From: Myxococcales bacterium
GTDB lineage: Bacteria; Myxococcota_A; Polyangia; Polyangiales; DASUME01
NCBI GenBank assembly: GCA_047601445.1
Contig: JASGJH010000001.1
Span: 544,001-608,000 of the forward strand
Direction of reading: 5' to 3'
Length of the DNA: 64,000 bases
Numbering within the stretch: position 1 is the stretch's first letter; the number at the start of each line of letters is the position of its first letter. The position numbers are program-made. Of this stretch, positions 42,401 through 48,400 are shown one piece after another.

Positions 42401-45400
42401 AGGGCTTCACTGACTTCCTGATAGCTAAGCTCTTCGATGTCGCACAGCCAGACCACCGTGCGGTAGGGCTCCGGCAGCGCGCGCACGGTGCGCAACACGG
42501 ACTCGGTGTCGCGCAGCATCTCGAGGGAGTGCTCCGGGGTCGGTAGAGGATTGGGGCCGTTCTCGTTGCCGAACCAATCTTCGAACAGTGTCCCGAAGCG
42601 TTCCAACGCCTCACGCACCAGCCCGCGGCGGCGCGCTGTGTGGCGCACGGAGTCCATGTGCTCGTTGCGGACGATGCCGTAGAGCCAGCCGAGGAGGGGC
42701 GCTTCGGCGCGGTAGCTCGAGCGGTGCTGGTACGCTTTGACCAACGCGTTCTGGAGCAGGTCCTCGGCCGCTTCGGGGCTGTCGGCCAGGGTACGGCACA
42801 ACCTCAGAAGCGGCGGAAACAATGGACGCACGGCCCGCGCGAAATCTTCGCGTGACCATGCTTCGCAGGCTGACCCGAGATCGCGTACCGCTTCTTCTTG
42901 GGTCTCAACCGGTAGGAGACGCACGGCGCTGATCATACGGAGCCAAACCCCTGGTTGCCACGTGAAGTCACGCATCTGGAAAGACGCCATGAACGACCGG
43001 CCGGTTCCCCGCCCTGAAGCGGACCGGCAATGACCAGGAAAGTCCTTGAGAATTCAGCGGATTGGCGGAGACCGTTCAGTCTTCGACCACGCGTGCGAGG
43101 GCGCGCGTGTGAGATTCCGCCAACACTTGGACTGGAACGTCGAGCACATCCTCGATCTCGAGGGTGTCTCCACCCACGAAGCCGAGCAGGCTGAAGGGGA
43201 CCCCGAGTGTTTCGCAGCGCTCCTGGACCTTGGCCCGTTGCTCGGGAGCGAAGCTTACTACCACCCTGGAGGGTTCCTCGTGGAACAACTTGGGGAGCGG
43301 GTCGGTCCCGCCCGCCGCGGGCAGCTCCACGGAGCAGCCGATGCGCCCCGCGATGCAGCACTCGGCCAGCGCCACACCCAGGCCGCCGTCGCTCACGTCG
43401 TGGGCGCTCGACAGGAGGCGATCGCGCGCCAGGTCCAGCACGGCGCGCTGCAACTTCACTTCGGCTGCCAGGTCCAGCGTCAGGGCCTGCCCGCGCAGCT
43501 CCCCCGTGCGCGAGACCAGGAACTCGGAGCCCGCGAGGTTCCCGCCCCCGGGGACGCCGAGCAGCGCGACCATATCGGCCTGACGCACGAAGCCGATGCC
43601 CATGCGGTCGCTGGCATCACGCAGCTGACCGACCACGGCCACCGTAGGCGTGCCGGGCGCGGACCCTTCACGCAGCGCCACCGAGCTCTGCACCACGGGC
43701 AGCTTGAGTGCCAGACAGGCGTCGCGGACCCCATCGACCATCTCGGACAGGCGCCAGTTGGTCTCGGGCTGATCGGCGTGACCCAAGCTCAAGCCCACGG
43801 CGATGCCGAGCGCTTCGGCGCCCACGCACACCACGTTGCGGGCGCACTCGGCCACTGCCATCGCCGCACCCTGGCGCGGATCGAGCTGGGCGTGCCGGCC
43901 GTGGCCGTCCACGGAGAGCGCGATCCACTTCTCCTTGGTGTTCTCGTCCTCGGAGGAGAAGCGCAGCAGGGCGGCGTCGCCGACGGCGTTGCGGCCGCCA
44001 CCCGTGCGCGCACTGCTGTCGAGACGACGCATGAGCCATTCGCGGCTCCCGACGTTGACCGACCCGAGCAAGCGCACGAGTTCGCTCTCTGCGTCCTCGT
44101 TGCGTTTGAGCGCCAGGGCAGGCGTCGTGGGGTCGAGCTGAGCCGCCTTGACGGGGCGCTCGTAGGAAGGCGCGTCCTGTACCAGCAGGGACACTGGCAG
44201 GTCCGCCACCACCACCTGCTTGGCCTCCGAGGTGCTCTTGCTCGCGCTCTCGTCGGGGCTCGCCTTGCACACCACGCGGCCCGTGTTCGTCACGCGTCCG
44301 ATCACCCGGGCGGGGACTTCGTGGCGCTGGAAGACCTCGAGCACCGCGTCCTCGCGTCCCTTGCGCACCACCAACAGCAAGGCCTCGGCAGGTGCGCACA
44401 GTGCCTGGAACGGCGAAGGACGCTCGGTCCCCCGCGGCAGCGCGTCGAGGTCGATTTCGACGCCCGTCTCACCGCGCGCGGCCAGGCGCACGATGGCGCC
44501 GGCCAAGCCCGAGACGCCGATGCCCGCAGCACCCTCGATGGAGCCGAGCTTGAGGGCCGCCAGGCAGCTCTCGTTGAGTCGCTTGTGGATGTCTTCGGCG
44601 GCCTGAGCGCCGAGCACACCTGCATAGAGTAGGGTGTTGCCGAGCCCGGTGGCTCGCCCCTCGGCCAGCGCTTCGCTGCGCGCTACCCCGAGACCGATTC
44701 CCTGCACCAACTGCAAGGCCTCGTAGCGGCTGTCGAATCCGAGATCGCCGCCCGCGATGCCGACGGCCATGCTCTTGCTCAGGCCGGCCAATCGCTGCGC
44801 CAGTTCCTTGAGCTGATCGGCGGTCTGCACTTCGCCAGGGGTGCCCAATCGCAGCGCGTCGAAGAGCGCGAGCGGCTCGGCGCCGGTGGCGACCACATCG
44901 CGCATGGCGCTGCCGAGACACATGGCTGCCGCGGCCCCGAGATCACTCAGCTCTTGCTTGGGCTCTGCCCATGCCAGCGAGAACACGGCGCATTGCCCGT
45001 CGCCGAGATCGAGCGCTGCTGCGCCGCCGAGACTGCTGCTGCGCACGACGTGAGCACCAGAGGTCGGCAGGCGTCGCGTATGGACCCGCGAAGACTTCTG
45101 TGACTCGCGCTCTGACCAGAGCACCGAGAGCACGCCCAGCTCGGCGTGAGTAAGGTTGCGGGCCAACTCCTTGACGGCGCGTGAGAGCTCCGTTTCAGAC
45201 AGGCCGAGCGTGCGAGCGAGCTCCGCTGTGACTTCCGGATCCCCTGGAAAAGGAACCACTTTTGTATCTGTCTTCTTCGCTGTGGCCATGCTGGGCGGCG
45301 AACCTTAGCCCGCGCGGTTGGTGCGGGCCAGGTGTCGCCGACTTGCCGCACAGCCCTGACTCACCCGGGCGTACCCGAGTCGAGAAGCGAAAGTAGCTCC

Positions 45401-48400
45401 GAGGTGGCGAGGGCAGGGTCCGCCGCGGACAGCACTTCGCGCACCACAGCTATGCCGCGTGCCCCTGATTGGCGTAGTTCGGCCACGTCCGCGGCGCGCA
45501 CTCCCCCCAGGGCGTACACAGGCAGTCGTACGGCCGCGATCGTGCGTGCGAACCCGGCGATTCCGAGCGGGGGCCCCTTGGCCGCCACCTCGTGGACCGG
45601 TGACAGGGTGGCGTAGTCGGCGCCCTGGCGGGCGGCCTCGAAGAGCCCCTTGAGGTCATGGCGCGAGACCCCGACCCAGCGTTGGGAGCCCAAAAGTTTG
45701 CGCGCCACCTCGATCGGCAGTCCCGCCTCGGGGAGCTGTACGCCGTCGGCTTCCACGGCCAGCGCGATGTCGACCCGATCGTTGATGAGCAGGGTGCTCT
45801 CGCGGGCCCGGGTGAGGGCGCGCAGCTCCAGGGCGACCCCCAAGATCTCACGGGTGGTGCTCTGGCGCGTTCGGAGCTGGACGGCCACGCGGCGGGGGGG
45901 CACGGCGGACAGGGCCCGCGTCAGGCGACCCACCAGGTCCGGCCCCTCGTCGGTGATCAGAATCAGGTCAAAGGACGGCATGGGCGCGCCCTCTCCTCAT
46001 TCGTCGACGTCGGTGTCCTCGCCGGCTTCGGCGCGTTCGGGGGCGCTCTTTTCGAGCTTGTCGAGCTCCTTCTCGTCGAGCTCGGGCAGGCCAAGTTCGG
46101 AGCGTGCCCGCTGTGCATAGCGCGAGCCAGGGTACTGCTCGACGATCTGTCGCAACGTGGTTTCGCGTGCTTTGTCATCGCCTTCCTTCTGGAACCGCTC
46201 TGACAGAATCCAAAGTGCCTTGGGGGCCGTGTCCTCGAGGGGGCGCTCGTTTTTGCTCGTCGCGCACTGATACGGGGCCAAAAGCGCCGCGCACAAGGCA
46301 AGTACCGCAGACTTCATGCTCTCTCCGATCCAATCACGCCTTCGAGCGGGCTCGACGCCGTGGCGTACAGCTTCTTGGGGATGCGCCCCGAAAGGTAGGC
46401 CAGCCTACCTGCCTCCACGGCCAAGCGCATCGCGCGCGCCATGCGCACCGGATCCTTGGCGCCAGCGATGGCGGTGTTCATCAGCACGCCATGGCAACCG
46501 AGCTCCATGGCGATGGCGGCGTCGGAGGCGGTGCCCACGCCGGCGTCGACGATGACCGGGACCTTCGACTGCTTGAGGATGATCTCGATGTTGTAGGGAT
46601 TGCGGATGCCGAGGCCCGAGCCGATGGGGGCGGCCAGCGGCATGACCGCGGCGCAGCCGATGTCCTCGAGCTTCTTGCAGGTGATGGGATCGTCGTTGGT
46701 GTAGGGCAGCACGGTGAAGCCCTCCTTGACCAACACGCGCGCGGCCTCGAGCGTCTGCTCGACGTCCGGGAACAGCGTGGCCGGATCGCCCAGCACCTCG
46801 AGCTTGACCAGGCTGCTCATGCCGGCCTCGCGGGCCAGCCGGCACGTACGCACCGCGTCGCTGGCGGTGTAGCAGTGGGCGGTGTTCGGAAGCAGCGTGA
46901 ACTTGCGCTCCCGCAGATACTCGAAAAGGGCTTGATCCTGAGGCTTGGAGAGATCCACGCGCCGTACGGCGACCGTGACTACCTGGGCGCCGGAGGCGTC
47001 GAGTGCCGCCTTGGTCTCCTCGAGATCCTTGTACTTGCCCGTGCCCACGAAGAGACGGGATTCGAACGTATGCGGACCAATAGTGAGCACGTCTTGCATG
47101 GGCTTTGGTACCTGGGTTGCCGGGGTTCAGCCGCCGCCCACGAACTGGACGACTTCGAGCTTGTCGCCCTCGAGGAGGCAGGTAGAGGCGTGTTGTGCGC
47201 GCGGGACGATGTCGGCGTTGCGCTCGACTGCCACGGGGCGCTCGCCGAGTCCCAGTGTCTCGAGCAATACGCCGATGGTGAGGCCTTCCTGCACCTCGCG
47301 CGGCTCGCCGTTGATCTCGATGCGCATGCGGGCGAGCCTAGCAGCGGCCCCGGGTTTCACCAACGCGCACGAAGAGACCGCGCAGCCCCCTTCCCATGAC
47401 CCGTAGCCAGCCCAGCGTGAGCGAAGCGAACCTCGCGGCGGGGTGGGTCCCATCGCGGCTTTGCCGCGGTGGGCGGGGAGGTCGCGTGACCTCCCCGCGC
47501 CAAAAAATGGTATCACTCGCGCGTGCCCAGTCAGGCAGACCCCGCGCTGAACGAGCGCCCCAAGCTGTTGGCGATCCTCCAGGAGATGGCGCTGCTCTTG
47601 ATCCGTCCGTTCGTGGCGGTGCTGGCCGAGATCGGGCTCACTGTGCGGCTGTTGAGCGCCACCTTGTTCTGGGGGGTGCGGCGCCCCTATCGCTTCAACC
47701 TGTTCCTCGAGGCGATGGAGTTCGTCGGCGTTCAGTCGGTGTTCATCGTGGGCCTCACGGGCCTGTTCATCGGCATGGTGTTCGGCATTCAGCTGGTAGA
47801 CGGGTTCCGCGACTTCGGCGCAGAGAACCAGACGGGTGCGGTGGTCGGCATGGCCCTGGCGCGCGAGCTCTCGCCGGTGTTTACGGCGCTCATGGTGTCG
47901 AGCCGCGCGGGCAGCGCCATGAGCACGGAGCTGGGCTCGATGCGGGTGTCGGACCAGATTGACGCGCTCACCACGATGGCGGTGAACCCGGTGCAGTACC
48001 TGGTGGTGCCGCGGGTGCTGGCGGGCTTTCTGATGGTGCCGCTGCTCACCATGTTGTTCAACATGGTCGGCATCTTCGGGGCTTGGCTGGTGTGCGTGCA
48101 GATCCTGGGCCTCGACAGCGGCATCTTCGTCGACAAGGTCCGCTGGTTCGTGGACGCGTCGGATCTGCGTCAGGGGCTCGTGAAGGCCTTCGCCTTCGGT
48201 CTCACTATCTCACTGATCGCCTGTCGTCACGGCTTCTATGCCAAGGGCGGCGCGGCGGGAGTGGGGCAGGCCACCACGGCGGCCGTGGTGCAGAGCGCGG
48301 TCTCGATCCTGGCGCTCGACTACGTCATCACCTCGGTGATCACCGGCGGCTTTTGATGGCGGCCGTCGGCCCGAACGGGCGCAACCAGGCCCAGGCGAGC

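What a model noticed while it worked through the whole genome (the two positions that open the first line are those of the whole stretch)
43076..47327. A catalytically dead small PurL kept in the thiamine operon after a large PurL took over
The last gene of thiS-thiG-orf-thiE is an intact 737-aa small-type PurL that has lost both active-site histidine motifs. The genus has no PurS, has acquired a gammaproteobacterial large PurL (8646325), yet every member keeps this pseudo-enzyme whole, mostly behind thiE, which suggests a new non-catalytic role tied to thiamine synthesis.
Evidence so far: WSEHCSYK reads WSERESQK-like and KxESHNHP is gone in 10 of 10 genus proteins (715-815 aa, no stops), while 7 of 7 proteins from other families keep both motifs; the 3 of those 7 loci that were annotated have a PurQ-like neighbour. 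thiG/thiE adjacent in 4 of 4 genus loci annotated. PurS in 0 of 10 genus genomes, 12 of 14 controls; large PurL in 8 of 10, 61.6% to Pseudoalteromonas.
(Added by a program. Inside this text positions count along the whole contig: contig position 544,001 is position 1 of the stretch shown here. "Call 12" and the like, gene names such as g00115 and contig names such as C1 are that model's own, and its searches are not shown. The text may have been shortened before it was handed on; [...] marks where a part breaks off. The agent that wrote the report below was given it as the finding of a first reader that could run no searches.)

Follow-up and report, generated by a model that had tools for sequence, protein, structure and literature searches.

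The report
Dead purine enzyme kept under selection
One group of uncultured myxobacteria replaced a purine-making enzyme with another version yet keeps the old, catalytically dead protein intact and conserved, with a newly conserved surface, so it probably has a new non-enzymatic job; nothing ties that job to the vitamin B1 genes next door.

Summary
Observation confirmed; the thiamine link is not supported. Window 43076-45289(-) encodes a 737-aa small PurL that has lost the catalytic histidine motifs, most of the catalytic loop and the other active-site residues, as have all 10 genus proteins and 56 family proteins. It is not decaying: pooled dN/dS 0.13, PurL fold predicted, own promoter-like element in 9 of 9 loci. 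The auxiliary-ADP ligands are kept, and the C-terminal B2 domain, variable in active PurLs, has become the most conserved part. PurS is missing in 10 of 10 genus genomes, an intact large PurL does the chemistry, and only 1 of 89 other large-PurL Myxococcota genomes keeps a small PurL. The position behind thiE predates inactivation (thiE-lepB-purQ-purL in active relatives), and that one other dead PurL sits behind pnp-purB. Dead small PurLs arose at least 8 times in a 48-row tree. Best reading: an ADP-loaded, non-catalytic scaffold with a new binding surface; partner unidentified. The scan earlier noted a dead PurL on other DNA (e1-7795671, unchecked).

The parts
43076..45289 (-). Catalytically dead small PurL (737 aa, P0001)
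   Evidence: model pLDDT 93.5, Foldseek 3viu TM 0.88
45254..45289 (-). Lineage-specific basic N-terminal tail (KK within the first 12 residues)
   Evidence: 45 of 52 full-length dead proteins, 0 of 64 active
44255..45118 (-). A1-B1 half (residues 58-345) with the eroded catalytic site: H32->R61, Y35->Q64, KxESHNHP replaced, catalytic loop deleted near residue 228, QDMG and ESQ lost; R130 and the DX4GAXP frame kept
   Evidence: T. maritima numbering read from the 2hs0 alignment
43388..43978 (-). Span holding the auxiliary-ADP ligands D438, R465, E481, N485, H630, D631, S633, D634
   Evidence: E481, N485, H630, D631, D/E634, R465 in 56 of 56; D438 54 of 56; S633 55 of 56; mapped to large PurL D679/E718/N722/D884/S886 by alignment; only D679 read in a paper, the rest recalled
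43079..43609 (-). B2 domain (residues 561-737) with newly invariant, largely polar residues: proposed new binding surface
   Evidence: p-distance 0.21-0.23 vs 0.42-0.54 in active relatives; 33 of 93 vs 20 of 151 variable positions fixed
45302..45330 (-). Promoter-like element TGGCCC-17 nt-TAAGGT, 12 nt before the ATG
   Evidence: conserved in 9 of 9 genus loci with upstream DNA; the generic consensus scan did not call it
45361..45981 (-). ThiE/TenI-family gene (below the ThiE cut-off); ancestral neighbour
45997..46317 (-). 106-aa probable lipoprotein with weak YbgF/BamD-like match; neighbour
   Evidence: no Pfam match; lipoprotein label inferred from the sequence
46314..47099 (-). thiG
   Evidence: PF05690, 379 bits
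47127..47327 (-). thiS
   Evidence: TIGR01683 over cut-off

Best explanation
A pseudoenzyme born by displacement. Shown: the ancestor had purQ-purL (own promoter, beside thiS-thiG-thiE-lepB) and purS elsewhere; the genus holds an intact single-chain large PurL; purS and purQ are gone and the promoter-like element now abuts purL; the catalytic cleft and the QYDH loop eroded while the fold and the auxiliary-ADP ligands stayed; B2 and a new basic N-terminal tail became conserved. Inferred: the protein still folds around its auxiliary Mg-ADP and works as a non-catalytic scaffold or adaptor that binds a new partner through the mostly basic B2 surface (helices 607-622 and 682-694, strands near 652-655 and 708-711), a surface that is free to vary in active PurLs. 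The ADP is most likely structural. The partner is not identified and is not shown to belong to thiamine synthesis.
For: Active-site residues replaced across 56 proteins, kept in 64 of 64 active ones (D442 in 63 of 64); the 56 are the hits above a score gap (929 vs 799 bits) plus one fragment. Two-residue deletions in the same catalytic loop abolish FGAM production in Salmonella PurL (PMC7124931, passages). dN/dS 0.128 over four disjoint pairs, 0.10-0.17 in every domain, like thiE, dam and the ECF sigma. Identity to G007/G004 82/76%, large PurL 81/76%. Retention is not the default: 0 of 13 and 1 of 76 other large-PurL genomes keep a small PurL, against 9 of 9 in the genus. B2 gain of constraint: odds ratio 3.6 in the dead clade, 0.12, 0.21 and 0.43 in three active subclades. 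Clade nested among active Polyangiales PurLs with a long stem (0.48) and mostly shorter tips. Auxiliary ADP described as structural and taken up during folding (PMC13013826, passages).
Against: No partner, expression or phenotype shown. Surface exposure of the B2 residues is inferred from variability and secondary structure; no coordinates were available. Keeping the ADP ligands may only reflect folding. The B2 test treats related sequences and sites as independent, so its p-value (1e-4) is overstated. B2 dN/dS (0.11) is hardly lower than A1 (0.12) in close pairs. R130 (54 of 54), Q64 (52 of 52), H at position 498 (48 of 56) and D131 (36 of 54) persist near the old cleft, which allows a residual ligand site. 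The dead PurL of G226 does not share the genus B2 residues on reading, so a common function across dead PurLs is not shown.
Confidence: 0.5

Rival explanations
1. Regulator or organiser of purine synthesis: the dead PurL binds the incoming large PurL or another Pur enzyme and tunes it, as a prozyme-type dead paralog or a herpesviral vGAT does.
For: Its inactivation maps to the lineage that holds the large PurL; purF and purM are intact in G000; vGATs act through host PFAS (PMC7605207, passages).
Against: 88 of 89 other large-PurL genomes do without it; the QYDH and PGEN loops are eroded (their role at the PurQ/PurS contacts rests partly, partly on recall); no genomic link to the large purL.
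Confidence: 0.15
2. A remodelled cleft binds or converts a new small molecule (new PurM-superfamily enzyme or metabolite sensor).
For: R130 54 of 54, Q64 52 of 52, H498 48 of 56, W58-S59-E60 and the DX4GAXP frame remain (signature from PMC13013826 section 8).
Against: A1 and B1 are the most variable domains in the clade (p-distance 0.46 and 0.42 vs 0.12 and 0.19 in active ones); K68/E70/D236/N478 positions are free; D131 is replaced in 18 of 54; P0001 itself has V498.
Confidence: 0.12
3. Small PurL already had a second job in the ancestor, and only that job survives; this would explain repeated dead PurLs.
For: Dead label needs 10 changes, at least 8 forced by starred branches; 13 degenerate proteins among the 148 newly listed 50% representatives.
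Against: The conserved surface is new, not ancestral; small PurL is missing from 88 of 89 other large-PurL genomes; selection on the other dead copies is untested (no close relative of the G226 gene among 30 genomes).
Confidence: 0.1
4. One reading: a non-catalytic role in thiamine synthesis (for instance with ThiG/ThiE or at the AIR branch).
For: ThiE-like gene directly upstream in 9 of 10 genus loci and in 4 of 4 metagenome loci with upstream DNA; AIR is the shared precursor (recalled); read-through from the thi genes is not excluded.
Against: Linkage predates inactivation; own promoter-like element; ThiL and ThiC present; other neighbours equally syntenic; G226 copy lies behind pnp-purB.
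Confidence: 0.08
5. Slow decay, or selection only against misfolded product.
For: Deeper pairs give dN/dS about 0.3 (dS near saturation, and neighbours rise likewise); erosion is graded among subclades.
Against: dS 0.45-1.3 with no stop in 10 of 10; promoter-like element kept; gain of constraint in B2; deletion is the usual fate elsewhere.
Confidence: 0.04

Closest known systems
Small PurL of the PurS-PurQ-PurL FGAM synthase (T. thermophilus 3VIU, T. maritima 2HS0/3D54; TIGR01736)
   Same: Same four-subdomain fold and linker (TM 0.88 to 3viu), 42-45% identity to active Polyangiales PurLs, auxiliary-nucleotide ligands kept.
   Different: Catalytic histidine motifs, catalytic loop and Mg ligands lost; no PurS (0 of 10) or PurQ (0 of 5 tested) in the genome; conservation inverted towards B2; new basic N-tail.
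Gamma-herpesvirus vGAT / vFGARAT (ORF75, TIGR01739)
   Same: FGAM-synthase homologs that lost catalysis and act by binding other proteins (PMC7605207, passages).
   Different: Viral, derived from the large single-chain enzyme, defined there by loss of the glutaminase triad; this one is a bacterial chromosomal synthetase-only subunit, TIGR01739 76 bits vs cut-off 716.
Other PurM-superfamily enzymes (ThiL, PurM, HypE, SelD)
   Same: AIRS/AIRS_C domains and DX4GAXP frame.
   Different: Twice the size, far weaker matches (TM about 0.3); ThiL and PurM are present separately.
Dead paralogs that regulate an active enzyme (e.g. trypanosomal prozyme, PMC5201418, search listing only)
   Same: Conserved dead homolog coexisting with an active enzyme for the same reaction.
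   Different: Here the active enzyme is a horizontally moving single-chain form, not a duplicate; no interaction shown.

Membership tests
Active small PurL | Small-PurL length and AIRS/AIRS_C x2 plus linker fold | tested here: met
Active small PurL | WSEH and ESHNHP histidine motifs | tested here: not met
Active small PurL | Catalytic loop (GRDG...QVGDP), QDMG, ESQ, DCLN, GNVS | tested here: not met
Active small PurL | Score over curated cut-off | tested here: not met
   418 of 648 and 362 of 526 bits
Active small PurL | PurS and PurQ in the genome | tested here: not met
   PurS 0 of 10; free PurQ 0 of 5 genus genomes tested, 5 of 10 untested; several genomes incomplete
Active small PurL | Auxiliary nucleotide-site ligands | tested here: met
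   residue list largely recalled
Active small PurL | FGAM synthesis | not testable with these tools
   needs assay
Pseudoenzyme (as defined in PMC7605207) | Enzyme fold lacking key active-site residues | tested here: met
Pseudoenzyme (as defined in PMC7605207) | Maintained, not a pseudogene | tested here: met
Pseudoenzyme (as defined in PMC7605207) | Demonstrated non-catalytic function | not testable with these tools
   needs partner or phenotype
vGAT / vFGARAT | Viral, full-length FGAMS architecture with degenerate glutaminase domain | tested here: not met
   no glutaminase domain; below cut-off
ThiL replacement | thiL missing from the genomes | tested here: not met
   ThiL over cut-off in 8 of 10
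Thiamine-operon gene | Linkage to thi genes acquired with the new role | tested here: not met
   linkage in active relatives
Thiamine-operon gene | Co-transcription with thi genes | tested here: inconclusive
   own promoter-like element; no terminator called between thiE-like gene and purL on the minus strand

The most novel reading that the evidence does not exclude
Small PurL is a repeatedly recycled scaffold: whenever another enzyme frees it, it can become an adenylate-sensing adaptor in which the supposedly vestigial auxiliary ADP site is the working site, gating a newly evolved binding surface; the genus protein and the at least 8 independent dead PurLs would be an unrecognised class of bacterial nucleotide sensors.
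Probability: 0.15. Interest if true: 0.85.

Novelty: new variant of a known kind. Interest (0 to 1): 0.6.

Why it matters
It is a clean natural experiment: enzyme displaced, partners deleted, chemistry gone, protein kept and re-conserved on a new face, with 88 of 89 control genomes simply lacking the gene. It offers a protein with only the auxiliary ADP site left, which makes the open question of whether that site is structural or regulatory (PMC13013826) directly testable. It also warns that proteins annotated as PurL in metagenomes include dead ones in several lineages. No bacterial pseudo-PurL turned up in six literature searches, which cover open-licence papers only.

Tried and rejected
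ThiL substitute: rejected, ThiL present. G027 as a dead member outside the genus: rejected, motifs intact. One origin of all dead PurLs: the FastTree grouping was long-branch attraction; nearest-hit analysis and the mixture-model tree (0% of 200 bootstrap trees with one origin) reject it. First fold with 10 sequences was poor (pLDDT 52) and was replaced. Generic promoter scan found nothing at the gene. ESM Atlas on B2 gave only unnamed clusters under 0.9. Sequencing runs: no RNA holder listed. Morar 2006 (PMC2527724) was not held; roles of T. maritima H32, H72 and the other numbered residues are recalled, supported only by the H72A change visible in 2hru and by passages on Salmonella H296 and human H311/Q485. 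No close relative of the G226 gene was found to test selection on it. Earlier-findings look-ups by sequence, by place and by a second word set returned nothing. No supplements were read.
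Full report
Observation. Window 43076-45289(-) is an open 737-codon gene behind thiS (47127-47327), thiG (46314-47099), a 106-aa ORF and a ThiE/TenI-family gene. It matches small-PurL models below their cut-offs and T. thermophilus PurL 3viu by sequence and by predicted fold (pLDDT 93.5 with a 150-row alignment; TM 0.88; the alignment held active PurLs, so the model shows compatibility with the fold, not independent proof). Record titles of genus relatives name uncultured Polyangiales or Myxococcales.

The catalytic site is gone. Against active relatives, WSEHCSYK reads WSERESQK, KMESHNHP is replaced, about 26 residues of the GRDG...QVGDP loop are deleted, and QDMG, ESQ, DCLN and GNVS are altered in all 10 genus proteins (19 of 29 aligned rows printed). 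A database search with the genus alignment listed 120 proteins, 55 above a clear score gap. After dropping P0012 (the window gene itself) and adding P0001, 56 lack ESHNHP and 64 keep it; at the H32 position 0 of 52 with a residue have H, against 64 of 64. T. maritima numbering was read from the 2hs0 alignment; the functional labels of these residues are recalled, as the primary paper was not held. Passages of PMC7124931 show that two-residue deletions in this loop abolish FGAM production in Salmonella PurL and that H296 gates the site; section 8 of PMC13013826 places the human loop glutamine and H311 on the intermediate. Against full deadness: R130 (54 of 54), Q64 (52 of 52), H498 (48 of 56) and D131 of the DX4GAXP signature (36 of 54) persist.

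The chemistry is done elsewhere. G000 has a large PurL with all six motifs checked intact, plus purF and purM. Large PurL matches 9 of 10 genus genomes, and these form one group, weakly supported (61), among other Polyangiales large PurLs. PurS is found in 0 of 10 genus genomes; of 51 other genomes of the order 37 have PurS with a small PurL, 13 have only the large form and 1 has neither. Free PurQ was found in 0 of 5 genus genomes tested.

Retention is exceptional and under selection. None of those 13 keeps a small PurL. Of 301 phylum genomes searched, 78 had a large PurL; the 76 not yet examined were searched for a small PurL and 1, G226, had one (threshold 1e-45, so very eroded or fragmentary copies could be missed; kin are not independent). 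In the genus the score is 9 of 9. dN/dS is 0.056-0.15 in the five closest pairs and 0.22-0.33 in deeper, near-saturated pairs, the same range as the thiE-like, dam and ECF genes; pooled over four disjoint pairs 0.128 (0.11-0.15), and 0.10-0.17 in each domain. A promoter-like element, (C/T)TG(G/C)C-17 nt-TAAGGT/TAATGT/TACTGT, precedes the gene in 9 of 9 loci, 12 nt before the ATG in six and about 80 nt in three; the consensus matches only 3 places in the 9.5-Mb genome. A similar hexamer-17-TAnnnT element lies before purQ in 9 of 11 outgroup loci, with TTGC in or beside the first hexamer in 6. The simplest history is deletion of purQ (and lepB) between promoter and purL.

What is conserved. The ligands of the auxiliary ADP (E481, N485, H630, D631, D/E634, R465 in 56 of 56; D438 in 54) are kept; they align with D679, E718, N722, D884 and S886 of large PurL (D679 from PMC3815217 passages, the others recalled). 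PMC13013826 (passages) calls this ADP structural or vestigial and taken up during folding, so this may be a folding constraint. More telling is an inversion: B2 (561-735) has p-distance 0.21-0.23 among 52 dead proteins against 0.42-0.54 among 27 close active ones, at similar overall depth (0.36 vs 0.30), while A1 goes from 0.12 to 0.46. Of positions variable in active PurLs, 33 of 93 in B2 and 20 of 151 elsewhere are fixed in the dead clade (odds ratio 3.6); three active subclades give 0.12, 0.21 and 0.43. Many are charged or polar (R569, Q570, N584, R594, K612, R615, S653, E655, E683, R685, K687, Q689, R691, D708, E711, R729). A KK-bearing N-terminal tail is in 45 of 52 dead and 0 of 64 active proteins. 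That these residues form one exposed patch is inferred; within close pairs B2 dN/dS (0.11) is barely below A1 (0.12).

The thiamine link fails. thiS-thiG-thiE lie within about 8 kb of an active purQ-purL in 5 of 11 outgroup loci, as thiE-lepB-purQ-purL in G053 and G036; purQ matches in 11 of 11. The whole block (dam, mlaF, mlaE, thi genes) is syntenic in the genus. ThiL and ThiC are present, and three other genes pass the ThiE cut-off that the neighbour misses. The G226 gene, in another class, is also dead (WSEQH, no ESHNHP, loop shortened, auxiliary motifs kept; the break is an N gap), lacks purS and a free purQ in its genome, and lies behind pnp-purB. For the link: the thiE-like gene stays directly upstream in 9 of 10 genus and 4 of 4 metagenome loci, and read-through is not excluded.

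Recurrence. Among 148 newly listed 50% representatives, 37 failed a strict motif test; most were fragments or harmless variants, and I judged 13 outside the genus degenerate by eye (the profile favours such proteins). In a 48-row tree of the C-terminal half (12 of the 13, P0244 left out, plus G226) the genus clade nests among active Polyangiales PurLs (97/89) and the dead label needs 10 changes, at least 8 forced. One is named Bacteroidota, one has a 15-member cluster. Their genomes and selection are untested, so some may be young pseudogenes. An earlier scan note (e1-7795671) describes a dead purC-purL-purQ trio elsewhere; I did not check it.

Mechanism and verdict. Most likely (0.5) the freed small PurL became a non-catalytic scaffold that folds around its auxiliary ADP and binds a new partner through B2 and its basic tail. 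Rivals: regulator of the purine pathway (0.15), new ligand or reaction in the remodelled cleft (0.12), surviving ancestral second job (0.10), thiamine role (0.08), decay (0.04). It works like other pseudoenzymes and parallels herpesviral vGATs (PMC7605207, passages) but is not a member of that family, nor an active PurL. Six literature searches (listings read) and passages of PMC3261824 (which reports a decayed PurQ-like gene in an archaeon) and PMC10912719 showed no bacterial pseudo-PurL; subscription papers and supplements were not seen. New variant of a known kind; interest 0.6.

Noticed in passing
window 45361-45981(-): The 'thiE' scores under the ThiE cut-off here and in 5 of 5 relatives scanned while three other G000 genes pass it; its VQLPE stretch resembles TenI (recalled). 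May be a TenI-like paralog.
   Followed up: partly
window 45997-46317(-): The 106-aa probable lipoprotein has a 62% paralog at G000 5015821-5016111 and was not found between thiG and thiE in G005 and L150.
   Followed up: no
window 41681-42990(-): ECF sigma factor and a putative anti-sigma follow the dead purL in G000 and 3 of 9 other genus loci and in several metagenome loci; a candidate partner, untested.
   Followed up: partly
L145 4260-6445 (G226): Independent dead small PurL behind pnp-purB in a large-PurL genome, with a lysine-rich N-terminus; 54% to P0207 in the C-terminal half.
   Followed up: yes
P0126, P0134, P0163, P0184, P0190, P0207, P0231, P0244, P0247, P0248, P0251, P0262, P0267: Degenerate small PurLs in other lineages, most keeping the auxiliary-site residues; P0163 is 1064 aa with extra sequence of no Pfam family.
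   Followed up: partly
L084/L087 (G008:C317), also G060, G210, G333: Large purL is split into two pieces on one contig; assembly error or real frameshift not checked.
   Followed up: no
G050: A genome rated 100% complete with no PurL of either type, no PurS and no ThiC found: possible purine and thiamine auxotroph.
   Followed up: no
window 45260-45289(-): The public gene call starts at residue 11 (727 aa) and drops the conserved KK tail.
   Followed up: partly
window 49316-50197(-): D12-class adenine methyltransferase conserved at 70-89% and syntenic with mlaE-mlaF across the genus.
   Followed up: no
L157 30-2198: Deep-branching member of the dead clade with a less eroded first motif (WSERCAYR) and an intact PGENAG loop.
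   Followed up: partly
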